A stretch of DNA of 64,000 nucleotides from Gemmatimonadota bacterium (lineage in GTDB: Bacteria > Gemmatimonadota > Gemmatimonadetes > Gemmatimonadales > GWC2-71-9). Below are positions 1,750 to 46,658 of this stretch, piece after piece. How positions within the stretch are numbered: position 1 is the stretch's first letter; every line of letters starts with the position of its first letter. The DNA is taken from NCBI GenBank assembly GCA_039588055.1, contig JBDHAN010000001.1:26014-90013 (forward strand), written 5' to 3'. The notes beneath the pieces were generated by a model, which saw only the letters and a list, made by a program, of their open reading frames with translations, had not been told where the DNA came from and did not search any database. The position numbers and the translations under genes are program-made.

Positions 1750-1801
1750 GTGAGGATGAGTGGGGAACGGCGATCCGCTGCATCCCCCACTCGTGACTCA
1801 C
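1750..1801. terminator. Long imperfect hairpin in the convergent intergenic region (possible factor-independent terminator)
   Basis: GTGAG-GATGAGTGGGGA...TCCCCCACTC-GTGA-CTCAC lies between the 3' ends of the malic enzyme (+) and dodecin (-) genes. There is no clear U-tract. Confidence 0.3.
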
Positions 1802-1919
1802 CACGTTCGGCACACAACTCATGGTTCCAGTCCTACCGAATAGCTCGTCACGAATTCCATGACCTTCGACACCGCGAGGATGTCCTCCCCTACATAGCGG
1901 ATACTGTGGGTGTCAGCCC

Positions 1920-10707: not shown

Positions 10708-10885
10708 AGTCTTGCTAAGTTCTTTTCCCTAGCTATTTTATCCCCCTGCCAGCCGAGCAGGGCGGACGGCGTCCGCCGTCCGGTTTGAGCGGTCTACAAC
10801 AGTACGCTTGACACGCGGTGGAGGCTAGAAGGCTGCCAGCCAGCGGCCATCGCCGGTATGGATTTTGCGCTCTTGGAGATACAGG

Positions 10886-18185: not shown

Positions 18186-18265
18186 TTGAAAAACAATCTG
18201 TTAGACCGTGAGCTCCGCGGGACGTTCTTGCGACAGCCCTGGGAACGCTCTATAGTCTCTCGCCT

Positions 18266-19105
18266 ATGCCAGCAAGACCTATCAGCAGTGCTACCGTCTC
18301 GTTCGGACTCGTGTCCGTCCCGATCAAGCTCTACTCGGCGGCCGAATCCCAGTCGAAGATCAGCTTCAACTGGCTGCACAGGGACTGCGGCTCGCGCCTT
18401 CGCCAACAGTACGTCTGCAAGAAGCACGGCGACATCGTCGAGAAGGACGACATGGTCAAGGGCTACGAGTTCGCCAAGGACCAGTACGTACTGTTTACGT
18501 CGGAGGAGCTCAAAGAGGTCGAAGCGAAAGCGACGGAGTCGATCGAGATCGTGGAATTTGTGCCGGCAGAGCAGGTCGATCGCCATTACCTCAGCAAGGT
18601 TTACTACCTCGGTCCCGACAAGGGTGGGGATCGGGCGTACAAGCTGCTGAGCCGCGCCATGCAAGAGACCAAGCTCTGCGCCCTCGCCAAGTATGCCGCC
18701 CGCGGCAAGCAATACCTCGTGCTCGTACGGCCCATGGGTGAGGGGCTGGCCATGGAGCAGCTGCATTACCCCGATGAGCTCCGCTCTTTCGATGAGGTGC
18801 CGCTGGGCGAGAGCGAGATCAAAGACGAAGAGCTGAAACTCGCCGTGGAGCTCATCAAGCAGGCCGCCTCCGAGGAGTTTCATCCCGAGAACTTCGAGGA
18901 CGAGGTCCGCAAGCGAACGCTTGAGCAGATCGAACGGAAGGTTGCCGGCGAAGACATCACGCTGGCTCCGACCGAGGAGCCCAAGACCCAGATCATCGAC
19001 CTGATGGAGGCGCTCAAGGCCAGCTTGGCGAAGGGTGAGCAGCGCGCCGCTGAGCAGCAGGCATCGAAGAAGGCCAAGGCGACACCCAAACGAAAAAAGG
19101 CATGA
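18266..19105 (+). CDS. ku: Ku DNA end-binding protein
   Basis: RPISSATVSFGLVSVPIKLYSA, KGYEF..DQYV and YYLGPDKGG are typical bacterial Ku. The C-terminal tail is Lys-rich (SKKAKATPKRKKA). The gene is divergent from ligD across an 80-bp spacer. Confidence 0.95.
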   Translation: MPARPISSATVSFGLVSVPIKLYSAAESQSKISFNWLHRDCGSRLRQQYVCKKHGDIVEKDDMVKGYEFAKDQYVLFTSEELKEVEAKATESIEIVEFVPAEQVDRHYLSKVYYLGPDKGGDRAYKLLSRAMQETKLCALAKYAARGKQYLVLVRPMGEGLAMEQLHYPDELRSFDEVPLGESEIKDEELKLAVELIKQAASEEFHPENFEDEVRKRTLEQIERKVAGEDITLAPTEEPKTQIIDLMEALKASLAKGEQRAAEQQASKKAKATPKRKKA

Positions 19106-19698: not shown

Positions 19699-21318
19699 GT
19701 GGCTGATATCAGGTTGGCGGCCGCGATGTCCACTCCGCAGGGGAGAGCGACAGCACCGCTCGTCTCCCTCCCCTCGGACGTCATCGAGCAGTCCTGCAAA
19801 CGTGTCGGCATTCTCGGGATCGTCTTTGCGCTATTCTGGGCCCTCGCGCTGTTCATGGGCAACGTGGTGCACGGCTTTATCGAACCGGCCGTTCGCATGA
19901 CCGAGTTTGCCTTTCCGATGCCTGGCAACGTGTTTGCCACCATCGGACTGGCCATGTCGCTCGGTATGGTCGTGCTCGCCGGCAGGCTGCAGGACCGCCC
20001 CAACCTGCTGCTGGACCTGAGCCTCGTCTTCATGGTGCTGACGGCCCTCTTGATCGGCATTCTCAATCAGTGGATCCCGAACTTCGAGGGTAGAGGTATC
20101 TCCTGGATCTGTGTCGTCATTCTCGTGTACCCTGCGATTGCGCCGAATACGCCGGGAAAGATCTTACTGGCCGGCGTTCTCGCCGCCTCCATGGATCCGT
20201 TCGGTCTTCTTGTGACAGAGCTGCGCGGGGTGGAGTACGACGCGCCGCGCTCCGCCCTCGGCTTCAAGTTCCTGGCGAACTATTTGTGCGCCCTGCTGGC
20301 CGTCGTGCCAGCCAAGATGATCCGCGTGCTAGGACGGCACGCCCGGCGGGCACGCGACTTAGGGAGCTACCGGCTGGGCGATGAGCTGGGACGCGGCGGC
20401 ATGGGAACCGTGCACCGGGCCGAGCATCGTCTGCTGGCGCGACAGGCGGCCATCAAACTCATTCGGCCGGAGCTGCTTGGCGCCCGAGATCCGGACACGG
20501 CACGCATCATGGTCGAGCGGTTCAAGCGCGAGGCTCAAGCCTCGGCCTCACTCCGCTCGCCACACACCATCGAGTTGTACGACTTCGGCGCCACCGAAGA
20601 CGGCGCGTTCTACTACGTGATGGAGCTGCTCGACGGCATGAGCCTGGATGAGCTCATCGAGCGCAACGGCCCGGTTCCCGCGGAGCGGGCCATCGCGATC
20701 ATCCGACAGGTGTGCCTATCGCTCGCCGAGGCGCACGCCCGCGGTCTCATTCATCGGGACGTCAAGCCGTCGAACATCTTCTTAACGCGTATGGGCTTGC
20801 AGGTCGACTTCGTGAAGGTGCTCGACTTTGGGCTCGTCAAGGCACAGGAGAGCCGCGAACAGACACTGCTCACCCAGCAAGGAATGACCACAGGCACACC
20901 GGCTTACATGGCACCGGAAATGGCGATGGGAGAAAGCGACATCGACAGCCGGGTCGATGTCTACGCGGTCGGATGCGTGTTGTACTATCTCCTCACCGGA
21001 CAACTCGTGTTCGAAGCCGACACGCCAATGAAGATGATGCACCGCCACATCAGCGACGCGCCGGCGCCCCCGTCCCACCGAACCGAGCTCCCGATTCCGG
21101 CTGAGCTCGAGCAACTCGTCATGGATTGTCTCGCCAAAGTGCCCGACGGCCGTCCGGCGAGCGGCGCCGCGGTTGCACAGCGACTCACCGTCATTCCGGT
21201 TCGTGAGCCATGGACCGATGAGCGTGCCCACCGTTGGTGGCACACCAACCGTCCAGAGACACTGGAAGAGTGCGCTTGTGACCAGGGCGTGCTCTGCCCG
21301 GCCATGGTGACAGCGTGA
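19699..21318 (+). CDS. Ser/Thr protein kinase with an N-terminal polytopic membrane domain
   Basis: The N-terminal ~215 aa is multi-TM. The Hanks kinase domain follows (GRGGMGTVHRA...AIK, HRDVKPSNIF, DFG, GTPAYMAPE). Confidence 0.85.
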   Translation: MADIRLAAAMSTPQGRATAPLVSLPSDVIEQSCKRVGILGIVFALFWALALFMGNVVHGFIEPAVRMTEFAFPMPGNVFATIGLAMSLGMVVLAGRLQDRPNLLLDLSLVFMVLTALLIGILNQWIPNFEGRGISWICVVILVYPAIAPNTPGKILLAGVLAASMDPFGLLVTELRGVEYDAPRSALGFKFLANYLCALLAVVPAKMIRVLGRHARRARDLGSYRLGDELGRGGMGTVHRAEHRLLARQAAIKLIRPELLGARDPDTARIMVERFKREAQASASLRSPHTIELYDFGATEDGAFYYVMELLDGMSLDELIERNGPVPAERAIAIIRQVCLSLAEAHARGLIHRDVKPSNIFLTRMGLQVDFVKVLDFGLVKAQESREQTLLTQQGMTTGTPAYMAPEMAMGESDIDSRVDVYAVGCVLYYLLTGQLVFEADTPMKMMHRHISDAPAPPSHRTELPIPAELEQLVMDCLAKVPDGRPASGAAVAQRLTVIPVREPWTDERAHRWWHTNRPETLEECACDQGVLCPAMVTA

Positions 21319-21329: not shown

Positions 21330-22928
21330 CTACGACTTGACCGTTGGAGGCTCGCCGTCGCGCACTTGTGGCGCCGGCACCAACTCTGGCAAATTCGTCC
21401 GCCACCACCGCTCCGCCAGCTCTGCCGTCCAGGGATCACCGACATCACAGGAGGCCAGCAACCGACCGAGCGTCATCGCGTCGGCTGGTCGGCGCTCGCG
21501 GTCCTTCTCGATGCAGGTGAGCAGGAGCTCGTCCAACTCACGAGTGACCGGAAGCTCGGAGTGATACGACGCAGGCAGCGGCGTGTTCCGAATGTGCGAC
21601 ATCATCATCTTCATGGGCGTCTCCGCCTCGAAGACCAGGCGGCCCGTAAGCAGCCAATACGCGACACACCCGAGCGCATAGATGTCGCTCCGACCGTCGA
21701 TCTCTTCACCCCGGGCCAGCTCTGGTGACATGAAGGCCGGGGTGCCCGTGGCCATGTTCGGCGCGGTGAGCTTGGCCTGCTCCGTCTCGCTCGCGAGCCG
21801 CCCTTTGACCAGGCCGAAATCGAGCACTTTGAGGAAGTCCGCTTCCAGTCCCACCCAGCAGGTGTAGAGGTTGGCCGGCTTCACGTCCCGGTGTACAAGC
21901 CCGATGGCGTGTGCTTCGGCCAGAGCGCGGCAAGCCTGTTGCAGCAGATACGTGGCACGTGCCGGCCGCATCGGACCGAAGCGCTCGATAAGCGTCTCGA
22001 GGTTGAGCCCCCGTAGGAGCTCCATCACGTAGTAAAAGTCGCCCGCGTCCGTGACACCGAAGTCGTAGAGTGCGATGGCATGTGGTGAATGCAGGCTCGA
22101 CGCGGCCTCGGCCTCCCGCTTGAACCGTCGTACGATGGTCGCGGGTGGTTCGGCCTCACCCGTGCTCAACATTGCCGGCCGAACCAACTTGACCGCCGCG
22201 GGACGGCGGAGCAGCCGGTGTGTCGCCGCATAGACCTCGCCCATTCCCCCGCGGCCTAACAAGTCGCCAAGCTGGTAACTACCGAGCTCGCGAGCGTGGC
22301 GAACCTGATTGCTCAGCCGTGTGATGACGTGGGACGGCAATACGGCGAGAACGGCACACAGGTAGTTGGGCAGAACCGCCCAGACCAACACCGGAACTGA
22401 CGGCAATTCGACACCGCGTGCCCCGGTTATCAGTAGCCCGACGGGATCCATGCTCGCGGCGACCAGCGCTGCGACGAGGGTGCGTCGCCTGGTACTGGGC
22501 ACGATGGCCGGAAACACCAGCACCAACACACAAATCCATGAGAGTCCAGTCGTGTTCGGTGTCCACTGATTCACAATGCCGATTGCGAGCGCAATCACAA
22601 CTTCGTACGCAAGCCCGAGGTCCAGCAGCCGTCGCGTTCCGGCAGCGGCGCTCCGGGTATAGCCATAGACCACGAACGAGGTGACGATCACGACAAGCGC
22701 CGCCGGGTTGCCCGGTACCGGCCACGCGTCGTCCAGCGGCGCCCCCGGCGAGAGAATGGGACTCACGAAGTTGTTCAGCGCGAGCTGCAGTAGCCAAAGC
22801 CCTGCTCCAACGAGGCACGCAACGCCCAGGCGCTTGGTGGCAATCTGAAGGAGATCGGCCGGAACTTCCTCGATTGCACCGAGAGGCCCGGTCCGCACGT
22901 TGACGTCTGGGAATTCCGCTGGGTCCAT
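21330..22928 (-). CDS. Ser/Thr protein kinase, paralog of 19699..21318 with the same architecture
   Basis: The membrane domain shares blocks with its neighbour (NQW.PN..G.SWICV.VLV.PAI.P, AASMDP.GLL.T..RGVE). Kinase motifs are GRGGMGEVYAA...AVK, HRDVKPANLY, DFG and GTPAFMSPE. Confidence 0.85.
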   Translation of the reverse strand: MDPAEFPDVNVRTGPLGAIEEVPADLLQIATKRLGVACLVGAGLWLLQLALNNFVSPILSPGAPLDDAWPVPGNPAALVVIVTSFVVYGYTRSAAAGTRRLLDLGLAYEVVIALAIGIVNQWTPNTTGLSWICVLVLVFPAIVPSTRRRTLVAALVAASMDPVGLLITGARGVELPSVPVLVWAVLPNYLCAVLAVLPSHVITRLSNQVRHARELGSYQLGDLLGRGGMGEVYAATHRLLRRPAAVKLVRPAMLSTGEAEPPATIVRRFKREAEAASSLHSPHAIALYDFGVTDAGDFYYVMELLRGLNLETLIERFGPMRPARATYLLQQACRALAEAHAIGLVHRDVKPANLYTCWVGLEADFLKVLDFGLVKGRLASETEQAKLTAPNMATGTPAFMSPELARGEEIDGRSDIYALGCVAYWLLTGRLVFEAETPMKMMMSHIRNTPLPASYHSELPVTRELDELLLTCIEKDRERRPADAMTLGRLLASCDVGDPWTAELAERWWRTNLPELVPAPQVRDGEPPTVKS

Positions 22929-29108: not shown

Positions 29109-32100
29109 ATGACCCAGCCCAACGGTCGCACGCAGTGGGAGAAGGGCATCTGTGGTATCTGCCCGGCCGGGTGCTGGGTGGAGGTGGGTCTGGATGACGG
29201 CAGGCTGGTCGACATACGCCCCGATTCGGGCCACCCCCTCGGCATGATCTGCCGTCGGGGCCAGCATGCCCCGGAGATCGTCTATTCGAAGCATCGGATT
29301 CCACATCCCCTCAAGCGTGTTGGTCCGAAAGGGACTCACGATTTCGAGCGCATCACGTGGGACGAGGCGTATGACATCATCGTCGACCGGCTCTCAACGA
29401 TTCGCTCGGAATCCGGGCCCGAGGCGGTAGCAGTCTACACGGGCCGTGGGGCGTTCGAGCTGTCCCTGTGCGACATGTTTCAGCCAGAAGGCGTTGCCGT
29501 GTCCTCTGCGTCGAACGTGCTGTTCCCGTTCGGCTCCCCCAACACCATGGGGGTCGGCGCGTTGTGCTACGTGTCATTCGCTATGATCGCGCCGCACGTC
29601 ACGATGGGCCGCATGCTCGTCAACATGTTCTCAGACATGGAATCGGCCGAATCGCTGGTGGTGTGGGGCGCAAACCCGGCGACCGACTCGCCCCCGCTCG
29701 ACATGGCACGCCTCGAAGCCGCGGCCTCTCGCGGCGCAGACATCATCGTCATCGATCCGCGGCGCACCGAGACCGTCACCCGCACAGGAGCCGAGTGGGT
29801 GCCGATTCGGCCCGGCACCGATGGCGCGCTCGCATTGAGCATGATCGAGGTCTTGATCGAAGAGGATTTGTACGACGAGGATTTCACTGACCAGTGGTGC
29901 CACGGGTTCGACGAACTGCGGCAGTACGTGCAGCATTTCACGCCGGAGGTTGCGGAAACCATCACCGGCATACCCGCCGACACGATCCGGGATCTCGCCC
30001 GTCGTATCGGCCGCGCCACGGGCGCGTGCCCGGTCATGTACACGGGCCTCGAATACTCCAATAGCGGCATTCAGGCCATCCGAGCCGTCCACATCCTGTT
30101 CGCCCTGGCCGGTCACCTCGATGTGCCTGGCGGCATCGGGCTCGCGATGCGCGGCTCACATTTCCCGATCAACCGATCGTGTAACCAGTCGAACCCCGAT
30201 CTCGCGCGCGCGGTGGCCAGAGACAAGTATCCCGTGTACTCGGAGTACCGCGGTGAGTCGCACGCGAGCGGATTAGTCTCGTCCGTGCTGCACGGAGATC
30301 CCTATCCCATTCGCGGCCTGATCATTCACGGGGCTTCACTGCTCACGTCGTGGCCCGAGACTTCGATCTGGCGCGAGACGTTGGCCAAGCTGGACTTCGT
30401 GGTCTCCATCGATCGGCAGCTCACCGCGGATGCCGCCTATGCAGACGTCGTGCTGCCTGCCACGACGATGTTCGAGATCGATTCGTACATGGTCTACGGT
30501 CCGATCTTCCGGCTACGCGAGAAGGTGGTCGAACCTTTCGGTGAGGCGCGAAACGACTACCTCATCATGGCCGAGCTCGCCGCCAGGCTGGGGTACGGCG
30601 ACCTATATCCCCAGACGGAAGAGGGGCTCGTCCGGTTTGCGCTCGAGGGCTCTGGATATTCGCTCGAGGAGGTGCGCGACGCCGGCGGATCGGTCAAACT
30701 GCCCTCCCCCATCATGGAGTACAGGAAGTGGGAGAAAGGTGGGCTGCGCGAGGACGGTACGCCCGGTTTCGAGACACCAACCGGGAAGTTCGAGATCTGG
30801 TCGACCGTGCTCGAAGACTATGGCCACGAGGCGCTGCCAAAATACACTGAGCCAGTCGAAGGGCCGCAGGCTCGACCCGATTTGGTGAGCGAGTTCCCTC
30901 TCGTGTTCAATTCCGGTGCCCGCCCGCACACCGACTTTCGCTCACAGCATCATGGCATCGAGGGGCTGAACCGCGACAACCCCGAACCCGCGGTAGAACT
31001 CAGTAGACATGACGCAGAAGCCCGTGGCATCGACGACGGCGATCTCGTGGAAGTCAAAACACCGCGTGGCGCTGTTCCCTTCCGGGCACGAGTCACCGAC
31101 GACATCGTGCCCGGCGCAATCGAGTGCAACATGGGCGGCGGCACACCGGTCGGTCCCACCGCGTGGAACGAGTGGAACGTCAACGAGCTTACGGACTTGA
31201 GCAACGCCGATGAGATCTCGGGATTCCCGGTCTACAAGGCGTTGCTGTGCGAGGTGGTCAAAGTCGCGAGCGGCGACGGTCGGGCCACAACGTGCGATCG
31301 AGGTGCCAGTTGTGGGCCCGTCTTGCTCGACAACGTGCAGCAGCGGCAGCAGCCCAAGCGCCGCATCTATCTTGACAACAACGCCACATCACAGGTCGCG
31401 GACGCCGTCCGAGAGGCAATGCTCCCCTACCTGGGCGACGCACTCGGCAACCCCTCGAGTATTCACAGTACAGGACGCGACGCCCGCTCAGCGATCGACA
31501 CCGCGCGCCGACAGGTCGCTCGCCTCATCAACGCACGCCCCCGGCGCATCATCTTTACGGCGGGCGGCTCCGAAGCCGACAATCTGGCACTCAAAGGCAT
31601 CGCGTTCGCGCGCCGCGAACACGGCAACCACATCGTGACAAGCGCCATCGAGCACCCGGCGGTGCTCGAGGCGTGTCGCTTTCTCGCGACGATCGGCTAC
31701 GACGTGACCTACCTCCCCGTCGACCGTCTCGGCATAGTCACACCGAGCGCGCTTCGCGAGGCTCTCACCGACCGTACCATCGTGGTCTCGATCATGATGG
31801 CCAACAATGAGGTCGGGACGGTGCAGCCGATCAGGGACCTCTGCGCCATCGCGCATGAGCACGACGTGCCGTTCCATACCGATGCGGTGCAGGCAGCGGG
31901 CAAGATCCCAATCAGTGTCGAGGAGCTCGGCGTCGACCTCCTGAGCCTCTCGGGTCACAAGTTCCACGGGCCCAAAGGCGTCGGTGTCCTGTACGCAAAG
32001 AAGGGCATCGAGTTGGCGCCCCTCATCCACGGTGGGAAGCAGGAGGCAGGCGTGCGCGCCGGGACCGAAAACGTCCCGGCGATCGTGGGAATCGGCAAAG

Positions 32101-32516
32101 CTGCCGAGCTAGCTCTCGAGGCGTCGACCGACAGTTCACCGGTAGCACGACTGCGCGACCGGCTCGAGCAGGAAGTCCTTCGGCTCATCCCGGGGGCGAC
32201 GATCAATGGAAGCGTCAAGCATCGGCTGCCCAACACGTCCAACCTCACGCTGCCCGGTTTGCGGGGGGAATCACTCGTGGTCGCGCTCGACCAGCATGGA
32301 ATTGCACTGTCCTCAGGCTCGGCGTGCAAGTCCGGGTCGCCCGACCCCACGCACGTGCTCATCGCCATGGGGCTCCCACCCGAGCAGGTGCACTGCTCGA
32401 TTCGGCTCTCCCTGTCGCGCGACACGACCGAGGAAGACGTCGAGGATACCGTTGCGGCCCTCGAGCGGGTGTTGGAGGAACTCGAGACGACGGTGCGGTT
32501 CCTGCCCTGCAAATAG
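29109..32516 (+). CDS. Fusion protein: molybdopterin (Mo/W-bisPGD) oxidoreductase N-terminal ~740 aa plus NifS/IscS-type cysteine desulfurase C-terminal ~385 aa
   Basis: N-terminal 4Fe-4S motif CGICPAGCW...ICRRG, MopB-type blocks (VVWGANPA, VIDPRRTET, RPGTDGAL) and a C-terminal molydopterin dinucleotide-binding barrel (GDLVEVKTPRGAVPFRARVTD). After a ~40-aa linker come YLDNNATS, GGSEADN, SGHKFHGPKGVG (PLP lysine) and SSGSACKSG (catalytic Cys). It is one uninterrupted frame. Confidence 0.85.
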   Translation: MTQPNGRTQWEKGICGICPAGCWVEVGLDDGRLVDIRPDSGHPLGMICRRGQHAPEIVYSKHRIPHPLKRVGPKGTHDFERITWDEAYDIIVDRLSTIRSESGPEAVAVYTGRGAFELSLCDMFQPEGVAVSSASNVLFPFGSPNTMGVGALCYVSFAMIAPHVTMGRMLVNMFSDMESAESLVVWGANPATDSPPLDMARLEAAASRGADIIVIDPRRTETVTRTGAEWVPIRPGTDGALALSMIEVLIEEDLYDEDFTDQWCHGFDELRQYVQHFTPEVAETITGIPADTIRDLARRIGRATGACPVMYTGLEYSNSGIQAIRAVHILFALAGHLDVPGGIGLAMRGSHFPINRSCNQSNPDLARAVARDKYPVYSEYRGESHASGLVSSVLHGDPYPIRGLIIHGASLLTSWPETSIWRETLAKLDFVVSIDRQLTADAAYADVVLPATTMFEIDSYMVYGPIFRLREKVVEPFGEARNDYLIMAELAARLGYGDLYPQTEEGLVRFALEGSGYSLEEVRDAGGSVKLPSPIMEYRKWEKGGLREDGTPGFETPTGKFEIWSTVLEDYGHEALPKYTEPVEGPQARPDLVSEFPLVFNSGARPHTDFRSQHHGIEGLNRDNPEPAVELSRHDAEARGIDDGDLVEVKTPRGAVPFRARVTDDIVPGAIECNMGGGTPVGPTAWNEWNVNELTDLSNADEISGFPVYKALLCEVVKVASGDGRATTCDRGASCGPVLLDNVQQRQQPKRRIYLDNNATSQVADAVREAMLPYLGDALGNPSSIHSTGRDARSAIDTARRQVARLINARPRRIIFTAGGSEADNLALKGIAFARREHGNHIVTSAIEHPAVLEACRFLATIGYDVTYLPVDRLGIVTPSALREALTDRTIVVSIMMANNEVGTVQPIRDLCAIAHEHDVPFHTDAVQAAGKIPISVEELGVDLLSLSGHKFHGPKGVGVLYAKKGIELAPLIHGGKQEAGVRAGTENVPAIVGIGKAAELALEASTDSSPVARLRDRLEQEVLRLIPGATINGSVKHRLPNTSNLTLPGLRGESLVVALDQHGIALSSGSACKSGSPDPTHVLIAMGLPPEQVHCSIRLSLSRDTTEEDVEDTVAALERVLEELETTVRFLPCK

Positions 32517-38524: not shown

Positions 38525-39169
38525 TTGTTCGGTGCCGGGGTTGCAACGAGTCTGACACCGTGCATCTACCCCATGATTCCGATCACCGCGGGCGTCCTCG
38601 CCGCGTCCACGGACCGCCACACCTCACGGTGGCGAACCGTCCGCCTCACGCTCACCTACGTGTCCGGCCTCGCGCTGCTCTACGCATTCCTCGGCATGCT
38701 CGCCGGACTCACCGGGTCGCTGTTCGGCAGCGTGGCGTCGAATCCGTGGGCCCGGTTCGCCATCGGAAACGTGCTGCTCCTCTTTGCCCTGGCCATGCTC
38801 GACGTCATTCCGGTAGCAGCCCCACAGCGAATCGTCGCGTGGGCCGGAAAGCTCGGTGGTGGATCGTATCCGGCCGTGTTCCTGCTGGGGGCGACGTCCG
38901 GGCTCGTTGCTGCTCCCTGCGGCGCACCGGCGTTTGCCGTTGTCTTGACGTGGGTGGCCACCACCGGCAACGCCGCGCTCGGGTTCATGTACCTCTTCGT
39001 GTTCTCCATCGGCATGACGGCACTCCTTATCGCGGTCGGGGTATCCTCAGGAACGCTGGCGGCCCTGCCGAAGTCCGGGCAGTGGATGGTGTGGATCAAG
39101 CGGCTCGCCGGCCTCGCGATGCTGGCAATGGCAGAGTACTACTTCATTCAGATGGGGATGGTCTGGTAA
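38525..39169 (+). CDS. ccdA: Cytochrome c biogenesis / thiol-disulfide transporter CcdA (DsbD-beta family)
   Basis: FGAGVATSLTPCIYPMIP and LVAAPCGAPAF carry the two conserved membrane cysteines. The only canonical start is TTG 38525, but the protein-like frame continues upstream to 38396 (see findings). Confidence 0.8.
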   Translation: MFGAGVATSLTPCIYPMIPITAGVLAASTDRHTSRWRTVRLTLTYVSGLALLYAFLGMLAGLTGSLFGSVASNPWARFAIGNVLLLFALAMLDVIPVAAPQRIVAWAGKLGGGSYPAVFLLGATSGLVAAPCGAPAFAVVLTWVATTGNAALGFMYLFVFSIGMTALLIAVGVSSGTLAALPKSGQWMVWIKRLAGLAMLAMAEYYFIQMGMVW

Positions 39170-39699
39170 TGCGCACTCGTTGGCTGACCGTCGGGACGAT
39201 CGCGGCACTGCTCACTGGCGCACACGTGCCTGCGCTCCACGCGCAGGCCACGAATGCGGTCGGTCTGCCGGTCGGGTCCACGCCCGAGGCGACGGTCGTC
39301 GAGGATCTCGAGGGGAACGCAGTGGACCTCGGTGCGCTCGTGGGACAGAAGCCGGTGCTCGTGGAGTTCTGGGCCACATGGTGCAACGTGTGTGAGGAGC
39401 TCGCACCGACCATGCAGGCCGCACACGATCGGTTCGGCGAGCAGGTCGACTTCCTCGTCGTCGCCGTTGGCGTCAATCAGAGCCGCCGGTCAATCCGACG
39501 CCACAGGGAACGGCACCCAGCGCCCTTCCGGTTCGTGTTCGATGCCCGCGGCCGCGCGACCCGCGCCTTCAAGGCCCCGACAACCGCGTACGTCGTCATA
39601 CTCGACGCAGATGGGAAGGTCGCCTATACCGGAGTTGGCGCAGACCAGGATCTCGAGGGCGCGCTCGAGCGGGTCCTCAGCGGGCCCGGAAGCCCCTAG
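39169..39699 (+). CDS. TlpA/ResA-like periplasmic thiol:disulfide oxidoreductase (thioredoxin fold)
   Basis: The ATG overlaps the ccdA stop (TAATG). Signal peptide MRTRWLTVGTIAALLTGAHVPALHA and active site FWATWCNVCEE (WCxxC). Confidence 0.8.
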   Translation: MRTRWLTVGTIAALLTGAHVPALHAQATNAVGLPVGSTPEATVVEDLEGNAVDLGALVGQKPVLVEFWATWCNVCEELAPTMQAAHDRFGEQVDFLVVAVGVNQSRRSIRRHRERHPAPFRFVFDARGRATRAFKAPTTAYVVILDADGKVAYTGVGADQDLEGALERVLSGPGSP

Positions 39700-39702: not shown

Positions 39703-39736
39703 AACGGGCTCGGCAACGGCCGAGCCCGTTTTCGCG
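39703..39736. terminator. Bidirectional hairpin terminator between tlpA (+) and the peroxiredoxin (-)
   Basis: 12-bp perfect stem AACGGGCTCGGC / GCCGAGCCCGTT with a 4-nt loop, followed on the plus strand by TTCGCGTTTC. Confidence 0.6.
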
Positions 39737-39764: not shown

Positions 39765-40328
39765 TCATAACCCGGAATCCGCCGGCGTCACTTCATCAAT
39801 CGCGTCTTCCAGCTCCTCATAGGCCGTCGGATCGATCTCCCTGAACGGCGCCGCGACATAGCTGATTGTGCCACTCGGATCGATCACGAACAGCGCGCGG
39901 CTCCGGGGAGCACCATACAGCCTTCCGACGTTCGCTCCTTCATCGCTGCCGAACAAGAACGGGAACTCATCGTCCTTGGCCCAGGAGGCCAGCGCTTCGG
40001 GTGAATCCGTGCTGATGGCCACGAGCACCACGTTGCGGCCATTCCGAAACAGTTGCGCGTACTGATCACGGTACGCGTGCATTTGGATCGTTCAGCCACG
40101 GGTCCGTGCTCGAAAGAAGAACGCGAGCACGACGGTCTTGCCACGGAAATCGTTCAGCGTGACCTGGTCTCGCAACACGCCGAAGCGTGTCGCGCCCGGA
40201 AGCTCGAAATCCGGAGCCACGGTCCCGACCTGGAGGGGCTCCGCACGCTCCTGACAGGCTGCCGGTGTCACCGCGACTACGGCCGCGCCTGCCGCCGCGA
40301 GCAAAGCAAAGGTCTGCCTGCGCATCAC
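39765..40328 (-). CDS. Putative selenocysteine-containing peroxiredoxin (AhpC/TSA-BCP fold), exported; in-frame TGA at 40092..40094
   Basis: ORFs 40328..40092 and 40082..39765 are in the same frame and are separated only by TGA plus three sense codons. The joined sequence ...GKTVVLAFFFRARTRG[U]TIQMHAYRDQY...VAISTDS...FPFLFGSDE is collinear with BCP-type peroxiredoxins, with the TGA at the peroxidatic Cys position. The N-terminus MMRRQTFALLAAAGAAVVAV is Tat-like. Confidence 0.65.
40056..40077 (-). promoter_or_regulatory. Candidate bacterial SECIS hairpin
   Basis: On the mRNA, 14 nt after UGA: CGCGUAC-CGUGAUCA-GUACGCG, a perfect 7-bp stem with an 8-nt loop containing GU. Confidence 0.45.
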
Positions 40329-40398: not shown

Positions 40399-41970
40399 TT
40401 ATCTCAGAAGCTCTTTCACTTCTCGGCGTCCGGCCAGTTCGGCGTCAATCTGCACGCCGATCTCACGCGCACGCTCTAAGTCGGCCGTGAGGTCGTCCAT
40501 CGTTGCCATTCCCGCCTGTACCTTGAGCAGCCCGAGCCGTACGTTCTCGAGCGCGGCCACGGTAGTGGCCAGCCGCTCTCCCGTATCGCCGCGGCGGCGC
40601 AACGCCTCGGCGTCGTGCTCCAGCTGCCGTATGACCTCGGGTACTTCCGGCATCCGCCGACGCATGTCACTGGGCAGATCCTGATACAAATCCGCTGCGG
40701 CGCGCCCAAGCACGATCTCGGTTGCATCGCTCGAGGGCAATACGCGATGCTTGGGCTTCTTGAGCCCAAACCCGACCGCGCGGAAGTATGTGCGGCCGAA
40801 CCAGCCGGCCCAGAGCCGGTTCCACAAGCCGTTAACCCGTCGCATGAACTTGCCCGACCCTGCCGCCTCTGCCTCTTCCTCCAGCGCCTGAGCCTCGGCC
40901 AGCAACGCCGCTCGGATGTCCTCGAAACTGTACCCCACATTGAGCAGGCGCCGCGCTCGGGCGACGAGTTGAATGAATAGCGCCAAAAGGATGAAGTTGA
41001 GGAGTCCCGAAAAATTTCCGGCTTCCTGCGAGACCATGGCCGCCGTGATAAACACGGCTGTCGTAACCTCGGCGTTGCGGAGGAAACCTCTGATGAGTGG
41101 AGGAGCTCTGAGCTCCCGGCCACGCATCTCACCGATTGCCTGCGCCAGCTCCTCGCCACTGGGGTAGCGAGCGTCGGGCATCTTCTCCAGACACTTGCCG
41201 ATGAGACCCGAGAGCTTTGCCGGGACCTCGCGGCGGAACTGGGTCACCGCCGGAGCTGGCTCGGCAACGTGCTTGGCCAACAGGGCCGGCACATTCGTCG
41301 CCTCGAATGGGGCGCGACCTGTGAGGGCAAAGAACGCCGTCGCGCCGAGGGAGTACAGATCGCTGCGCGCATCGGTCGGCTCGCCGGCGGCCTGCTCCGG
41401 ACTCATGTATCGCGCGGTCCCGACGACGTGACCCTGTTCCGCCGGCTCATCGACGTCCTCCACATGAGCGATGCCAAAGTCTGTCAGCAGCGCGCGGCCG
41501 GTCGCCTGATCAAACATGATGTTTTCGGGCTTGATATCGCGATGCACGATGCCGCGCTGATGCGCGTACGACAGCCCCCATGAGATCTCCTGCACGAGCC
41601 GCATCGTTTCACGGGGTGACAGCGGTCCGGCGCGGATCACCCGGTCCCGTAGGGTCTCGCCGTCGACATAGCCCATCACAAAGAAGACCAACGTGCCGTG
41701 TTCCTCGACAGAATGGATCGGGACGACATTCGGATGGGACAGCCCGGCCGACGTCCGGGCCTCGCGGAGAAACCGTTCCCGGCGCTCGGGATCTTCCGCC
41801 AACTGCAGAGGGAGCAGTTTCATTGCCACTAAACGATCGAGCGCCACGTCGCGGGCGAGGAGCACGATGCCCATGCCACCTCGCCCCAACTCACGCTCGA
41901 GCGAATAGCGGCCTTTCACGGCGTCCTGCAGGGTCAAGAACTCGGGGCTCAGCATCTCAGCCATGGCCAT
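40399..41970 (-). CDS. Ser/Thr protein kinase with a C-terminal TM hairpin and coiled-coil region
   Basis: GRGGMGIVLLA...AMK, HRDIKPENIMF, DFGIA and GTARYMSPE, followed by two TM segments and a ~190-aa helical tail. I prefer the ATG start at 41970; the track ORF begins at GTG 42009. Confidence 0.85.
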   Translation of the reverse strand: MAMAEMLSPEFLTLQDAVKGRYSLERELGRGGMGIVLLARDVALDRLVAMKLLPLQLAEDPERRERFLREARTSAGLSHPNVVPIHSVEEHGTLVFFVMGYVDGETLRDRVIRAGPLSPRETMRLVQEISWGLSYAHQRGIVHRDIKPENIMFDQATGRALLTDFGIAHVEDVDEPAEQGHVVGTARYMSPEQAAGEPTDARSDLYSLGATAFFALTGRAPFEATNVPALLAKHVAEPAPAVTQFRREVPAKLSGLIGKCLEKMPDARYPSGEELAQAIGEMRGRELRAPPLIRGFLRNAEVTTAVFITAAMVSQEAGNFSGLLNFILLALFIQLVARARRLLNVGYSFEDIRAALLAEAQALEEEAEAAGSGKFMRRVNGLWNRLWAGWFGRTYFRAVGFGLKKPKHRVLPSSDATEIVLGRAAADLYQDLPSDMRRRMPEVPEVIRQLEHDAEALRRRGDTGERLATTVAALENVRLGLLKVQAGMATMDDLTADLERAREIGVQIDAELAGRREVKELLR

Positions 41971-42183
41971 ATCTGCGTTGGGGCGATCATCCACCACACG
42001 ACAAATCACGATTCGCGCGACAACAACTGCTCATGCGGCGTCGCCCGTAAGCTACGTGTCCCCCGACCGCACGACCAGCCATGCACACATGACCGTCTGC
42101 CCACCACGCTTGACCGTCCACCGGCCCTCGGGCATTATCCGCAACGGCCTTTTGGCGGCATGCGCCGCAAGGAGCGCAGCAGG

Positions 42184-42690
42184 GTGATTCAGAAGAAGAT
42201 CTGCATGGTCGGCGTATATGGGACTGGGAAGACGAGCCTCGTCCAGCAATTCGTCCACGCCAAATTCTCCGAGCGCTATCACTCGACCGTCGGTGTGAAG
42301 ATCGACCGCAAGCCGGTGACGGTGGACGGGACCGACGTGAATCTCCTGCTCTGGGACTTAGAGGGTCGCGACGGTGTGCAAGACATCCAGACGAGCTACC
42401 TGCGGGGGGCATCCGGGATCATCTACGTTGCCGACGGAACGAGACTCGAGACGTTCGAGCAGATCCTCGAGCTTCGTGTCGTGGCCAAGAAGGCCATTGG
42501 CGATGTGCCGTCCGTGTGCGCGGTCAACAAGGTCGATCTCACCGAGGAGTGGAAGATCTCCGATGCGCAGATCGAAGGACTGGACGCCCCGACATGGCAC
42601 TCGCTCAAGACCAGCGCAAAGACGGGTGCGGGGGTGGAAGAGGCGTTCCACTGGCTCGCGGCCACAATGATCGGAGGCGCCGAGGCATGA
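42184..42690 (+). CDS. Ras-superfamily small GTPase (Rab/Ras-like)
   Basis: G1 GVYGTGKTS, G2 T in YHSTVG, G3 WDLEGRD (DxxG, with Arg replacing the catalytic Gln), G4 NKVD, G5 TSAK. GTG 42184 has AAGGAG 9 nt upstream. An alternative ATG is at 42160. Confidence 0.8.
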   Translation: MIQKKICMVGVYGTGKTSLVQQFVHAKFSERYHSTVGVKIDRKPVTVDGTDVNLLLWDLEGRDGVQDIQTSYLRGASGIIYVADGTRLETFEQILELRVVAKKAIGDVPSVCAVNKVDLTEEWKISDAQIEGLDAPTWHSLKTSAKTGAGVEEAFHWLAATMIGGAEA

Positions 42691-43571
42691 CCGAGCCGGA
42701 CTTGGATCAAACCCAACCACTTGACGCCGTACCGGAGCCGCCGGTGCGCATCGATGCCTATGGCATCACTGACACGGGCAAGGTTCGACAGCAAAACGAA
42801 GATCAATTCGCCGTCGGCCGCATGACGAGGTCACTCGAGCTCACACATACGAGCCTCGGCACTGTTTCGTCACTCGACCGCCTTGGCAAAACCGCGGCAG
42901 ACATTTACATCGTGGCGGATGGCGTGGGAGGAGTGGCTGGTGGCCAGTTAGCGAGCGGGATCGCTGTGGAGGCCCTGACAGAGTACCTCGCGCAGACGGC
43001 GGGATGCTTCTATCACACGGACATTGCTTTGGAGCACGAGCTCCTCGAGCGCCTGGAACAGGCGGCGCAGCATGCGCACGAGAGGGTCCGGGCTTTTTCG
43101 CCGAAGGGCCAGGGCCCGGCAACAACGCTCACCATGGTGACACTCCTCTGGCCACGCGCATACATCGTGCACATCGGAGACAGCCGGGGATACTACCTGC
43201 GCGGTGAGCGTCTTCGGCAGTTCACCAGAGATCAGACGATGGGCGAGTTGCTGGTGGACGAAGGAGTGGTCACGGAGCAGCAGGCCCGAGATTCCGGACT
43301 GGACAATGTGCTCGCCAGTGCGGTGGGTGCTGACATCAATCCCTCGATTGGCCTGCTGGACCTGCAGTACGATGACACAGTGCTGCTATGCTCCGACGGA
43401 CTCACCAAACACGTCTCGGACGAAGAGATCTCTGCGTTTCTGCAGGAAGGACAGGACGCCGCATCCACGTGCCGCCGGTTGGTTGACGCAGCGCTCGAGG
43501 GTGGCGGAACTGACAACATCACGGTCGTTGTCGCCCGTATGGGACGGCCGGCGAGTCCCTCCAGCGACTGA
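42687..43571 (+). CDS. PP2C-family Ser/Thr protein phosphatase
   Basis: The ATG overlaps the GTPase stop (ATGA). Motifs: TDTGKVRQQNEDQF, VADGVGG, HIGDSRGY, LLCSDGL, GGTDNITVVV. Confidence 0.9.
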   Translation: MTEPDLDQTQPLDAVPEPPVRIDAYGITDTGKVRQQNEDQFAVGRMTRSLELTHTSLGTVSSLDRLGKTAADIYIVADGVGGVAGGQLASGIAVEALTEYLAQTAGCFYHTDIALEHELLERLEQAAQHAHERVRAFSPKGQGPATTLTMVTLLWPRAYIVHIGDSRGYYLRGERLRQFTRDQTMGELLVDEGVVTEQQARDSGLDNVLASAVGADINPSIGLLDLQYDDTVLLCSDGLTKHVSDEEISAFLQEGQDAASTCRRLVDAALEGGGTDNITVVVARMGRPASPSSD

Positions 43572-43719: not shown

Positions 43720-43792
<73 letters not shown>

Positions 43793-46104: not shown

Positions 46105-46196
46105 GTCGCATAACGCCAACGCACCAAGGGTCGATCGGGTTGCGTGTCAGACATGCCCGCTGCGATATTTGTCCCCCGGCATCCGCGCCGATCCGT

Positions 46197-46268
46197 GGCG
46201 GTATCGTCTAGGGGTTAGGACGCAGCCCTCTCAAGGCTGAAACACGGGTTCGATTCCCGTTACCGCTA
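46197..46268 (+). tRNA. tRNA-Glu (anticodon CUC)
   Basis: Manual fold: GGCGGUA-UC-GUCU-AGGGGUUA-GGAC-G-CAGCC-CUCUCAA-GGCUG-AAAC-ACGGG-UUCGAUU-CCCGU-UACCGCU-A. The G1-U72 pair is a wobble. Confidence 0.8.
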
Positions 46269-46299
46269 TATTTCCCACCATCGCCACAGCTGGTGGCTC

Positions 46300-46371
46300 G
46301 CCCCCATCGTCTAGCGGTCAGGACACCACTCTTTCAAGGTGGGGACAGGGGTTCGACTCCCCTTGGGGGCA
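46300..46371 (+). tRNA. tRNA-Glu (anticodon UUC)
   Basis: Manual fold: GCCCCCA-UC-GUCU-AGCGGUCA-GGAC-A-CCACU-CUUUCAA-GGUGG-GGAC-AGGGG-UUCGACU-CCCCU-UGGGGGC-A. Confidence 0.9.
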
Positions 46372-46658
46372 CTCTCTTCTGCCCACCCCACACCACACCA
46401 CCGCAGCAGGAGCAGCACGCCCGACCGCGAGCACCCAACCACCTGACAAGCGGCATTTGCTGAAGGCTCATGGCTGAGAGTTGACGCTACGTGCGGCAGG
46501 GCGGCAGAAGTGGGAGGGCGGCGGCTGAGGACTGAAAACTGTCAACCGATTACTACTCGCTTTCGACACCCTCCCATAGCCTCTCGTCTCGTAGTAAGAT
46601 CTCCGGTACGCTACGAAACCGTGCCTCGGATCGTCCGTAGGGCCACTCGGGAGACGTT

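What the first reader, a model, noticed from the sequence alone, without database searches (positions are those of the whole stretch)
39765..40328. Peroxiredoxin with an in-frame UGA at the peroxidatic-cysteine position: probable selenoprotein that gene callers would split or call a pseudogene
Seen in sequence:
- Minus-strand ORFs 40328..40092 and 40082..39765 share one reading frame.
- The only interruption is TGA at 40092..40094, followed by ACG ATC CAA and then ATG.
- The joined 187-residue product reads ...VGTVAPDFELPG...VTLNDFRGKTVVLAFFFRARTRG-[UGA]-TIQMHAYRDQYAQLF...VVLVAISTDSPEALASWAKDDEFPFLFGSDE...ALFVIDPSGTISYV.
- This is collinear over its whole length with BCP/AhpC-TSA peroxiredoxins. 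E. coli BCP, as I remember it, reads ...FYPKAMTPGCTVQACGLRD...GISTD...
- The UGA falls where the catalytic Cys of the T-x-x-C motif sits (TRG-U-T versus TPG-C-T).
- Conservation continues normally on both sides of the UGA, which argues against decay.
- A perfect 7-bp hairpin begins 14 nt after the UGA (see the separate finding).

Established knowledge: Sec-for-Cys replacement at redox-active sites is the norm for bacterial selenoproteins, and Sec-peroxiredoxins have been described in a few anaerobes.

Inference: this organism uses the Sec machinery, and this gene is a Sec-Prx.
Basis: partly seen in the sequence, partly recalled or inferred. Interest (0 to 1): 0.75.

Follow-up and report, generated by a model that had tools for sequence, protein, structure and literature searches.

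The report
Selenocysteine peroxiredoxin in a Gemmatimonadota genome
The apparently broken peroxiredoxin gene is almost certainly intact, with its UGA encoding selenocysteine at the catalytic site; the same UGA and a near-invariant RNA hairpin recur in more than 120 related sequences across the soil phylum Gemmatimonadota, where annotation pipelines split the gene in two.

Summary
A perfect 7-bp hairpin starts 14 nt after it.

The Sec reading is strongly supported by comparison:
- The TGA aligns with the peroxidatic Cys of every full-length homolog.
- It recurs at 127 sites in fetched loci, including 46 of 63 Gemmatimonadota species representatives.
- Both gene halves are under purifying selection.
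- A 20-nt hairpin core is invariant in TGA forms but not in Cys forms.
- The closing base pair covaries (U-A 38, C-G 37, G-C 8).
- The hairpin meets all four published bacterial SECIS constraints.
- TGA is also the commonest true stop here, so the codon is not reassigned.

Not shown: selA/selB/selC/selD, which are absent from the window and all flanks and could not be searched genome-wide.

Sec-peroxiredoxins (TxxU) are known. Three things are new:
- The family is widespread in Gemmatimonadota and not modelled by NCBIfam.
- It is apparently exported and usually paired with a convergent CcdA + TlpA-like reductant module.
- The "absolutely conserved" active-site Pro is Phe/Tyr in Sec forms (105 of 106) but Pro in Cys forms (125 of 126).

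The parts
39765..40325 (-). Sec-peroxiredoxin gene. The probable ATG start is 40325 (an upstream GTG at 40328 is also possible) and the stop TGA is 39767..39765. Residue numbers below count from the GTG at 40328 (187 aa).
   Evidence: single frame, Pfam AhpC-TSA 9.7e-27 over the full model; the relative L005 starts at the ATG; the family model has a peroxiredoxin fold.
40254..40325 (-). N-terminal export signal, MRRQTFALLAAAGAAVVAVTPAAC|Q. It has a positive n-region, a hydrophobic core and a lipobox-like AAC. More distant homologs end in AxA|Q instead.
   Evidence: Read directly from the sequence. Alignment A1 shows every full-length homolog has such an N-terminus. The first ~30 residues of the model are low-confidence. 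No signal-peptide predictor was available.
40113..40115 (-). Phe72 (TTT) at the position of the conserved Pro of the Prx PxxxTxxC motif.
   Evidence: Unique sequences: Cys forms have Pro in 125 of 126; Sec forms have Phe, Tyr or Ile in 105 of 106.
40101..40103 (-). Thr76 of the TxxU motif.
   Evidence: Thr in 117 of 124 Sec forms (Ser 5, Gly 2).
40092..40094 (-). UGA codon 79, the proposed selenocysteine at the peroxidatic position.
   Evidence: It aligns with the invariant Cys in homologs. TGA is conserved at 127 sites in fetched loci.
40078..40091 (-). 14-nt spacer between the UGA and the hairpin (ACGAUCCAAAUGCA). The Gln codon is CAA in 110 of 126 Sec forms but CAG in 17 of 17 Cys forms.
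40056..40077 (-). SECIS-like hairpin: 7-bp stem (40077..40071 pairs with 40062..40056) and 8-nt loop CGUGAUCA (40070..40063). The loop starts 21 nt after the UGA.
   Evidence: MFE -9.4 kcal/mol; the 20-nt core is invariant in 90 of 94 unique sequences. RNAalifold predicts the same helix, and the closing pair is UA 38, CG 37, GC 8, other 9. Sec forms -9.0 +/- 0.6 versus Cys forms -3.8 +/- 2.5 kcal/mol; all four bSECIS model constraints are met.
39897..39899 (-). Arg144, the conserved active-site Arg of peroxiredoxins (SRALFVID).
   Evidence: Invariant column. It aligns with the Arg of solved BCPs (KRAVFVID).
39169..39699 (+). Convergent neighbour: an exported TlpA/ResA-like thioredoxin-fold protein (176 aa) with a WCNVC motif, the proposed direct reductant of the Sec-Prx.
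   Evidence: Redoxin, Thioredoxin and ResA-subfamily hits; present and convergent in 62 of 77 evaluable TGA loci. WCxxC is kept in all loci.
38525..39169 (+). CcdA-type DsbD transmembrane electron transporter. The start is uncertain (relatives aa). Its stop overlaps the TlpA-like start (TGATG).
   Evidence: PF02683 DsbD_TM, 1.6e-45; co-occurs in 62 of 77 TGA loci; same arrangement in L005.
39703..39730 (.). 12-bp G+C-rich hairpin between the convergent Prx and TlpA-like genes, possibly a bidirectional transcription stop. It has no U tract.
   Evidence: -33 kcal/mol for the 65-nt intergenic region, z = -2.7. Not flagged by the terminator scan.

Best explanation
The gene encodes one 186/187-residue peroxiredoxin of the BCP/PrxQ-AhpE type. 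Codon 79 (UGA) is recoded as selenocysteine at the peroxidatic position (F-x-x-x-T-x-x-U).

**Recoding.** The hairpin 14 nt downstream directs recoding. It has a 7-bp stem and a loop CGUGAUCA that begins 21 nt after the UGA. It is a bacterial SECIS element, which by the established mechanism is bound by SelB-GTP-Sec-tRNASec. This step is inferred: the RNA element is shown, the machinery is not.

**Location and chemistry.** The protein has an N-terminal export signal and no second Cys in the mature part. It would therefore act outside the cytoplasm as a '1-Sec' peroxidase, in which the selenolate attacks the peroxide to give a selenenic acid.

**Recycling.** The selenenic acid is proposed to be reduced by the exported WCxxC thioredoxin-like protein encoded convergently next door. 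That protein would in turn be reduced by the adjacent CcdA-type membrane electron transporter, using cytoplasmic thioredoxin. This step is inferred from conserved synteny and from analogy with the Caulobacter ScsB-TlpA-PprX pathway.

**Active site.** In Sec forms the otherwise universal active-site Pro is Phe or Tyr. This suggests the selenolate active site has different packing or activation requirements from the thiolate one (hypothesis).
For: **Family**
- Pfam AhpC-TSA covers the full model at 9.7e-27.
- Solved BCP/PrxQ proteins are the best sequence matches.
- The AF2 model of a family member has pLDDT 87.5, and Foldseek hits BCP/PrxQ and AhpE with TM-score up to 0.88.

**UGA at the catalytic Cys**
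- All full-length homologs read RARTxGCTIQM.

**Conservation**
- The five closest contigs have TGA and are otherwise intact. Synonymous versus non-synonymous changes for L003 are 14/8 upstream and 32/9 downstream.
- There are 127 TGA sites, 16 TGC and 1 TGT among the fetched loci.
- 46 of 63 Gemmatimonadota species-representative loci carry TGA, at only 49-72% amino-acid identity to the window.

**RNA element**
- Codons +6 to +11 are GCG TAC CGT GAT CAG TAC in 126 of 126 TGA loci (GAT->GAC in 5). Cys forms use TAT/TAC about equally, CGC in 15 of 17 and GAC in 15 of 17.
- The closing pair is UA 38, CG 37, GC 8, unpaired 9. None of 500 shuffles reach the observed covariation score, and RNAalifold finds the same helix.
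- MFE is -9.0 +/- 0.6 kcal/mol in Sec forms and -3.8 +/- 2.5 in Cys forms.
- All four bSECIS constraints of PMC13188914 are met: loop 8 nt (allowed 3-9), stem 7 bp (allowed 4-16), G at loop position 2 followed by U, 21 nt from UGA to loop (allowed 16-37), and MFE below -7.5.

**No codon reassignment**
- TGA ends 18 of 39 Pfam-supported genes in the window.

**Partner module**
- TlpA-like plus CcdA lie convergently downstream in 62 of 77 evaluable TGA loci.
- One Cys lineage (P0067) sits in the same cassette.
- The PprX precedent is described in PMC3322552.

**Pro swap**
- Counts are Cys with Pro 125, Sec without Pro 105, Sec with Pro 1, Cys without Pro 1.
- Upstream codons vary freely at synonymous sites, so the swap is a protein-level feature, not an RNA constraint.
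Against: - No selA, selB, selD or tRNA-Sec lies in the window or in 1.6 Mb of flanks from about 170 related loci. The rest of the genome could not be searched.
- No paper in the searchable library reports Sec use in Gemmatimonadota.
- No Rfam family matches the hairpin.
- Only one of the seven stem pairs covaries. The other six never vary, so they say nothing by covariation.
- The UA and CG variants partly follow clades, so the shuffle control overstates significance.
- The peptide A-Y-R-D-Q-Y-A is intrinsically near-palindromic at the codon level, and 9 of 17 Cys forms can still form 5-7 bp there.
- The loop does not obviously fit the common N1-G-[G/U]-N-N2 closing-pair pattern.
- Export and the TlpA/CcdA electron path are inferred from sequence and synteny only. 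15 of 77 TGA loci lack the pair.
Confidence: 0.88

Rival explanations
1. SelB-type recoding of this UGA inserts cysteine, not selenocysteine, through a selC*-like opal-decoding tRNACys. The hairpin would still be a SECIS-type element, but the product would be an ordinary Cys-peroxiredoxin.
For: Such systems (selC* tRNACys with a second SelB* and CysRS*) are described in Deltaproteobacteria (PMC7609411; PMC5389517). None of my evidence identifies the inserted residue, and the machinery was not seen.
Against: - If the product were a Cys-Prx, there would be no reason for the active-site Pro to be lost specifically in UGA forms (105 of 106) and kept in Cys forms (125 of 126).
- The known selC* systems come from other phyla.
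- Maintaining a costly recoding element across a phylum just to insert Cys is hard to explain when TGC is one mutation away, and some lineages have taken that step.
Confidence: 0.05
2. The hairpin stimulates generic stop-codon read-through, or termination followed by re-initiation at the ATG 9 nt downstream. Either an ordinary amino acid (such as Trp) is inserted, or two separate polypeptides are made.
For: An ATG lies 9 nt after the TGA, and gene callers do call a 105-aa downstream ORF. One source translated the TGA as W.
Against: - That ATG is the family-invariant Met of T-I-Q-M, present in Cys forms too. No purine-rich ribosome-binding site precedes it.
- A product with Trp, or one split at the peroxidatic residue, would have no catalytic nucleophile. 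Yet both halves are under purifying selection, and Thr and Arg of the active site are kept.
- The 'W' is a translation choice by the source; the DNA is TGA.
Confidence: 0.03
3. The gene is a pseudogene (nonsense mutation), or the TGA is a sequencing or assembly error for TGC/TGT.
For: - NCBI and JGI annotate only a 105-aa fragment.
- One low-coverage contig has TTA at this codon, so lesions or errors do occur.
Against: - The same TGA occurs at 127 sites from independent assemblies, spanning 49-99% amino-acid identity.
- There are no other disruptions.
- Synonymous changes far outnumber non-synonymous ones on both sides.
- A structure-constrained hairpin is present only in TGA forms.
Confidence: 0.01

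Closest known systems
Sec-containing peroxiredoxins (TxxU), including PrxU of Eubacterium acidaminophilum (Sohling et al. 2001; NCBIfam NF040737) and the 'Prx' selenoprotein family of Zhang et al. 2006 (PMC1794560) and Peng et al. 2016 (PMC5029168)
   Same: - AhpC/TSA fold.
- UGA at the peroxidatic Cys of T-x-x-C, with Cys orthologs in other lineages.
- A downstream in-frame hairpin.
- Repeated Cys/Sec interconversion is typical of this family (5 Cys->Sec events are listed in PMC1794560).
   Different: - It is not the PrxU family: 46 bits against a cutoff of 270.
- The motif is F/Y-x-x-x-T-x-x-U, not the 'highly conserved PxxxTxxU'.
- The protein has a signal peptide and a CcdA/TlpA-like partner module.
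- The host phylum is Gemmatimonadota, which is not mentioned in the papers and supplements I searched.
- Two Acidobacteriota Sec-BCPs fetched here keep the Pro (FFPKANTPG-U) and have a different hairpin.
BCP/PrxQ peroxiredoxins (E. coli BCP, Sulfolobus Bcp1/Bcp4, Xanthomonas PrxQ) and the 1-Cys peroxiredoxin AhpE of Mycobacterium tuberculosis
   Same: - They are the best sequence and structure matches (2ywn at 6.5e-13; 3hjp, 3drn, 5ima and AhpE 4x0x with TM-score 0.88).
- Thr, Arg and the position of the peroxidatic residue are conserved.
- There is no resolving Cys, as in AhpE.
   Different: - Sec replaces Cys, and Phe replaces Pro.
- The protein is exported.
- It scores below the BCP equivalog cutoff (62 against 140 bits).
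- It has the family-specific motifs RARTxG(C/U)TIQM and DEFPFLF.
Caulobacter crescentus ScsB -> TlpA -> PprX cell-envelope peroxide-reduction pathway (Cho et al. 2012, PMC3322552)
   Same: It combines a PrxQ-type peroxiredoxin with a signal sequence, a thioredoxin-like TlpA and a DsbD-family membrane electron transporter. Here the three genes are adjacent.
   Different: - The transporter is the minimal CcdA type (TM domain only), not ScsB.
- The peroxidase uses Sec, lacks a resolving Cys and lacks the Pro.
- No experiment supports electron flow here.
Bacterial SECIS elements (E. coli fdhF/fdnG type; consensus bSECIS model reviewed in PMC13188914)
   Same: It is an in-frame stem-loop just 3' of the UGA. 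It has G then U at loop positions 2-3, 21 nt from UGA to loop, a 7-bp upper stem and MFE below -7.5.
   Different: - The sequence is unrelated to E. coli SECIS.
- The loop is 8 nt with no evident closing N1-N2 pair.
- The 20-nt core is unusually invariant across a whole phylum.
- No Rfam model matches.

Membership tests
Peroxiredoxin (AhpC/TSA, PF00578) | Thioredoxin-type peroxiredoxin fold and a significant full-length profile match | tested here: met
   Pfam 93.8 bits against a cutoff of 26, covering model positions 1-123 of 124. The AF2 model of family member P0057 has pLDDT 87.5, and its top Foldseek hits are BCP/PrxQ and AhpE.
Peroxiredoxin (AhpC/TSA, PF00578) | A peroxidatic Cys (or Sec) in T-x-x-C at the start of helix 2 | tested here: met
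   T76-R-G-[UGA79]. The column is Cys in all full-length homologs.
Peroxiredoxin (AhpC/TSA, PF00578) | The conserved Pro of PxxxTxxC, called 'absolutely conserved' in PMC3322552 | tested here: not met
   The window has Phe72 (TTT, 40115..40113). Sec forms have F 61, Y 61, I 1 and P 1; Cys forms have P in 17 of 17 loci. Over unique sequences, 125 of 126 Cys forms have Pro.
Peroxiredoxin (AhpC/TSA, PF00578) | The conserved active-site Arg | tested here: met
   R144 is an invariant column and aligns with the Arg of KRAVFVID in 2ywn and 2cx3.
Bacterial selenoprotein | An in-frame UGA aligned with Cys in homologs and conserved among orthologs, with coding constraint on both sides | tested here: met
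Bacterial selenoprotein | A bSECIS stem-loop immediately downstream (loop 3-9 nt, stem 4-16 bp, G in the first two loop positions, 16-37 nt from UGA to loop, MFE <= -7.5 kcal/mol) | tested here: met
   Loop 8 nt (CGUGAUCA), stem 7 bp, G at position 2, spacing 21 nt, MFE -9.4 to -10.5. The element is conserved and partly covarying.
Bacterial selenoprotein | The genome encodes selA, selB, selC (tRNA-Sec) and selD | not testable with these tools
   They are absent from the 64 kb window and from 1.6 Mb of related flanks.
Bacterial selenoprotein | Selenium is physically present in the protein | not testable with these tools
   This needs 75Se labelling or LC-MS/MS.
PrxU selenoprotein equivalog (NCBIfam NF040737) | Score at or above the curated cutoff (270 bits) | tested here: not met
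   46.2 bits. It works like PrxU but is not a member of that family.
BCP thiol peroxidase equivalog (NCBIfam NF006960) | Score at or above the curated cutoff (140 bits) | tested here: not met
   62.4 bits.
Envelope peroxide-reduction pathway of the ScsB/TlpA/PprX kind | The peroxiredoxin carries an export signal | tested here: inconclusive
   The N-terminus MRRQTFALLAAAGAAVVAVTPAAC|Q looks like a signal or lipoprotein peptide and is present across the family. It is low-confidence in the model. No dedicated predictor was available.
Envelope peroxide-reduction pathway of the ScsB/TlpA/PprX kind | An exported CxxC thioredoxin-like protein and a DsbD-family membrane transporter are associated with the peroxiredoxin | tested here: met
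   A TlpA/ResA-like protein (WCNVC) and a CcdA (PF02683, 1.6e-45) are adjacent. The pair is present in 62 of 77 TGA loci. The transporter is CcdA-type, not ScsB.
Envelope peroxide-reduction pathway of the ScsB/TlpA/PprX kind | Electrons flow from the transporter to the TlpA-like protein to the peroxiredoxin | not testable with these tools
   This needs genetics or biochemistry.

The most novel reading that the evidence does not exclude
Gemmatimonadota is an abundant, largely aerobic soil phylum that is not mentioned in the selenoproteome papers and supplements I could search. It may carry a phylum-wide, unannotated, exported selenoperoxidase module made of Sec-Prx, a TlpA-like protein and CcdA.

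Within this one family, use of Sec instead of Cys is coupled almost perfectly (230 of 232 unique sequences) to replacement of the 'absolutely conserved' peroxiredoxin Pro by Phe or Tyr. At least one switch occurred in the same genomic cassette.

If that coupling is functional and not just shared ancestry, it is a natural experiment. It would show that a selenolate active site needs a different architecture from a thiolate one, and would give a direct handle on the old question of what Sec does that Cys cannot.
Probability: 0.4. Interest if true: 0.7.

Novelty: new variant of a known kind. Interest (0 to 1): 0.55.

Why it matters
**Annotation.** NCBI and JGI currently call this gene as a 105-aa fragment, and no NCBIfam model captures it. 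The same mis-annotation therefore affects at least 46 GTDB species representatives and many soil metagenome contigs.

**Biology.** The result implies that many Gemmatimonadota decode Sec, and that they use it for peroxide defence outside the cytoplasm.

**Enzymology.** The Pro-to-Phe/Tyr swap that tracks Sec is a simple, testable hypothesis. Four variants could be compared: P/C, F/C, P/U and F/U.

**Synthetic biology.** The 20-nt invariant hairpin, embedded in a fixed peptide (A-Y-R-D-Q-Y-A), is a compact SECIS that could be useful for studying SelB-SECIS specificity in a new phylum.

Tried and rejected
- **Sec machinery.** ARAGORN and Rfam on the window found only tRNA-Lys and two tRNA-Glu. 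Pfam on about 40 window genes found no SelA, SelB or SelD. tblastn with E. coli SelA, SelB and SelD, plus ARAGORN, on 1.6 Mb of flanks found nothing. Extending beyond the window edges failed or added only about 6 kb with no sel genes.
- **Literature on Sec in Gemmatimonadota.** Nothing relevant turned up, including in the supplements of the tRNA-Sec and ISME J surveys.
- **Rfam permissive scan of the gene.** No SECIS family matched, only chance hits with E above 2.
- **Other TGA-interrupted genes in the window.** The other candidates were antisense shadow frames or neighbouring genes in the same frame.
- **Structure prediction of the joined window protein.** I used P0057, the natural Cys-plus-Tyr form, instead.
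- **RNA-level explanation for the Pro swap.** Rejected, because upstream codons vary freely at synonymous sites.
- **'Cassette only with Sec forms' (0 of 13 Cys loci).** Rejected as a general rule after finding a Cys form (P0067) in the same cassette.
- **'At least 10 independent Sec/Cys switches'.** I do not rely on this. NJ trees of a 145-aa protein are weakly resolved, and the identical SECIS core argues for a single origin of the Sec form followed by some reversions.
- **Residues W, L or V at the catalytic position in database proteins.** W is a source's translation of TGA. L is TTA on a 1.6x-coverage contig. V (P0119) was not resolved.
Full report
**1.

On the minus strand, ORFs 40328..40092 and 40082..39765 are in one frame. 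The only interruption is TGA at 40094..40092, followed by ACG ATC CAA ATG. The joined 187-residue product matches Pfam AhpC-TSA over the whole model (E = 9.7e-27).

A perfect 7-bp hairpin follows the TGA after a 14-nt spacer. Its arms are CGCGUAC and GUACGCG and its loop is CGUGAUCA (40077..40056). Its MFE is -9.4 kcal/mol, and 2 of 200 shuffles fold as well. On the single sequence that is only mildly unusual. The real evidence comes from comparison with relatives.

**2. The source organism**

Exact-sequence look-ups place the window on a 160.9 kb contig of a Gemmatimonadota MAG. GC content is 63.5%.

**3. The TGA sits at the catalytic Cys**

More than 2000 homologs exist. Every full-length homolog has Cys at the TGA column, in the motif RARTxGCTIQM.

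The closest relatives (85-99% identical) were present in the database only as 105-108-aa C-terminal fragments. Their contigs (L001-L005) show why. Each has the same in-frame TGA, is otherwise intact, and has the same 9-nt distance to the conserved Met codon.

Synonymous changes greatly outnumber non-synonymous ones on both sides of the TGA. For L003 the counts are 14/8 upstream and 32/9 downstream. This rules out decay or a sequencing error.

**4. The feature is phylum-wide**

I scanned GTDB species representatives with the family alignment. I scanned metagenomes with the C-terminal half only, so that the query did not depend on the catalytic codon.

Classifying the catalytic codon gave 127 TGA sites, 16 TGC and 1 TGT. 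tblastn resolved the remaining loci as TGA forms too. These include:
- a complete chromosome (CP070812.1, L020);
- a 3.1 Mb contig with two tandem TGA paralogs (L048).

Of the 63 Gemmatimonadota species-representative loci, 46 carry TGA and 17 carry Cys. The sample is biased towards relatives of the query. The TGA forms span Gemmatimonadales, Longimicrobiales and Gemmatimonadaceae, at only 49-72% identity to the window.

**5. The RNA element**

| Feature | TGA forms | Cys forms |
|---|---|---|
| Codons +6 to +11 | GCG TAC CGT GAT CAG TAC in 126 of 126 (GAT->GAC in 5) | vary |
| Tyr codon | TAC | TAT/TAC about equal |
| Arg codon | CGT | CGC in 15 of 17 |
| Asp codon | GAT | GAC in 15 of 17 |

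So a 20-nt core (GCGUACCGUGAUCAGUACGC) is frozen only when the codon is TGA.

On 92 distinct sequences, RNAalifold predicts the same helix. The closing pair is U-A in 38, C-G in 37, G-C in 8 and unpaired in 9. None of 500 shuffles reach the observed covariation score.

There are limits to this evidence. Only one pair covaries, the other six never vary, and the variants partly follow clades.

Folding energy of the homologous 22-mer is -9.0 +/- 0.6 kcal/mol in TGA forms and -3.8 +/- 2.5 in Cys forms. Cys genes closest to the Sec clade have a decayed hairpin.

The element meets all four constraints of the published bSECIS model: 8-nt loop, 7-bp stem, G then U at loop positions 2-3, 21 nt from the UGA, and MFE below -7.5. 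Rfam has no matching family.

**6. Rival explanations**

- Genome-wide UGA reassignment is excluded. TGA terminates 18 of 39 Pfam-supported genes in the window.
- Re-initiation at the downstream ATG is unlikely. That Met is invariant in Cys forms too, and it lacks a ribosome-binding site.
- Read-through with an ordinary residue would leave no nucleophile, yet the active-site Thr and Arg are conserved.
- SelB-type insertion of Cys by a selC*-like tRNA (PMC7609411) cannot be excluded. It does not explain the active-site change described in section 8.

**7. What was not shown**

No selA, selB, selD or tRNA-Sec lies in the window or in 1.6 Mb of flanks. I found no paper reporting Sec use in Gemmatimonadota. 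The Sec machinery is therefore inferred.

**8. What kind of peroxiredoxin it is**

The best solved relatives are BCP/PrxQ proteins and the 1-Cys AhpE. The family model is confident (pLDDT 87.5), apart from the N-terminal ~30 residues.

The mature protein has no second Cys, so a 1-Sec mechanism with an external reductant is expected.

The N-terminus looks like a signal or lipoprotein peptide. This holds across the family.

Convergent with the gene are two genes whose stop and start overlap:
- a CcdA-type DsbD transmembrane protein (38525..39169);
- an exported WCxxC TlpA/ResA-like protein (39169..39699).

This pair is present in 62 of 77 evaluable TGA loci. The arrangement parallels the Caulobacter ScsB-TlpA-PprX envelope peroxide-reduction pathway (PMC3322552).

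The distant Cys clade lacks the pair (0 of 13 loci). One Cys lineage near the Sec clade (P0067) has the same cassette. At least one Sec/Cys switch therefore happened in place.

**9. An unexpected active-site change**

The Pro of PxxxTxxC is called absolutely conserved in peroxiredoxins, and 'PxxxTxxU' is described as highly conserved in Sec-Prx. Here it is Phe.

| Unique sequences | Pro | Not Pro |
|---|---|---|
| Cys forms | 125 | 1 |
| Sec forms | 1 | 105 |

- Upstream codons vary freely at synonymous sites, so this is a protein-level feature.
- Two Acidobacteriota Sec-BCPs fetched by chance keep the Pro, so the swap is specific to this family.
- NJ trees interleave Sec and Cys forms, with a Fitch minimum of 10-21 changes over 40 bootstraps.
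- I treat that count cautiously. The protein is short, and the identical SECIS core argues for one origin of the Sec form followed by reversions.

**10. Comparison with what is known, and verdict**

This is not the PrxU or the BCP equivalog: it scores 46 against a cutoff of 270 bits, and 62 against 140. It differs from known Sec-Prx in four ways:
- the phylum;
- apparent export;
- the partner module;
- the missing Pro.

I rate it a new variant of a known kind, of moderate interest. It has clear annotation consequences and offers a testable enzymological hypothesis.

Noticed in passing
window 29109..32516 (+); also L005 17310..20108: A 1135-aa fusion protein. The N-terminal part is a molybdopterin oxidoreductase (4Fe-4S, Molybdopterin and Molydop_binding domains; Fdh-alpha-like at 298 bits, below cutoff). 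The C-terminal part is a NifS-type cysteine desulfurase (PF00266, 1.4e-82; TIGR03402 at 512 bits against a cutoff of 531). JGI names it only 'cysteine desulfurase NifS'. The architecture is unusual and its role is unknown.
   Followed up: no
L048 about 10046..10492 and 10731..11186 (JAXHMG010000003.1); L020 10091..10528 (CP070812.1): One Gemmatimonadota genome carries two tandem TGA-peroxiredoxin paralogs, each with the hairpin. In the second paralog, and in L020, the Thr of TxxU is also replaced, by Gly (RARGSG-U and RARGRN-U). Both 'invariant' activating residues can therefore be missing in Sec forms.
   Followed up: partly
L072 about 10126 and L078 about 10174 (Terriglobia/Terriglobales MAGs): Two Acidobacteriota BCP genes have TGA at the peroxidatic position with the classical motif FFPKANTPG-U-NVEASEF. 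Their downstream hairpin is different and starts right at the UGA. These look like ordinary Sec-BCPs that keep the Pro.
   Followed up: partly
window 40082..40084 (Gln codon CAA, third codon after the UGA): The Gln codon in the spacer between the UGA and the hairpin is CAA in 110 of 126 Sec forms but CAG in 17 of 17 Cys forms. This constraint lies outside the predicted stem and is unexplained.
   Followed up: no
L170 (ENA contig, 864 bp) position about 332..334; L169; P0119: One relative has TTA (Leu) at the catalytic codon with an intact hairpin, on a 1.6x-coverage contig. It is either an error or a fresh lesion. One JGI protein shows W where the DNA has TGA. P0119 shows V at that position and was not resolved.
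   Followed up: partly
window 39703..39730: A 12-bp G+C-rich hairpin lies between the convergent peroxiredoxin and TlpA-like genes. It has no U tract and is not called by the terminator scan. It may be a bidirectional transcription stop.
   Followed up: partly
window 40399..43571: A Ser/Thr protein kinase (40399..42009, -), a Ras/Roc-like small GTPase (42160..42690, +) and a PP2C phosphatase (42516..43571, +) lie just upstream of the peroxiredoxin. The kinase is conserved next to the gene only in close relatives (6 of 77 loci). Two more Ser/Thr kinases are at 19699..21318 and 21330..22928.
   Followed up: partly
window 15633..19105: A full bacterial NHEJ pair: multidomain LigD (phosphoesterase, ligase and primase-polymerase; 850 aa) divergent from Ku (279 aa).
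   Followed up: no
window 43720..43792 and 46196..46372: tRNA-Lys(CTT), and a tandem of tRNA-Glu(CTC) and tRNA-Glu(TTC). There is no tRNA-Sec.
   Followed up: yes
L171-L174 1867..2547 and 1040..1870: The Cys form P0003, found on many soil contigs, sits near SCO1/SenC and CtaG, which are cytochrome oxidase copper-assembly genes, and not near CcdA/TlpA. Different members of the family therefore sit in different redox neighbourhoods.
   Followed up: no
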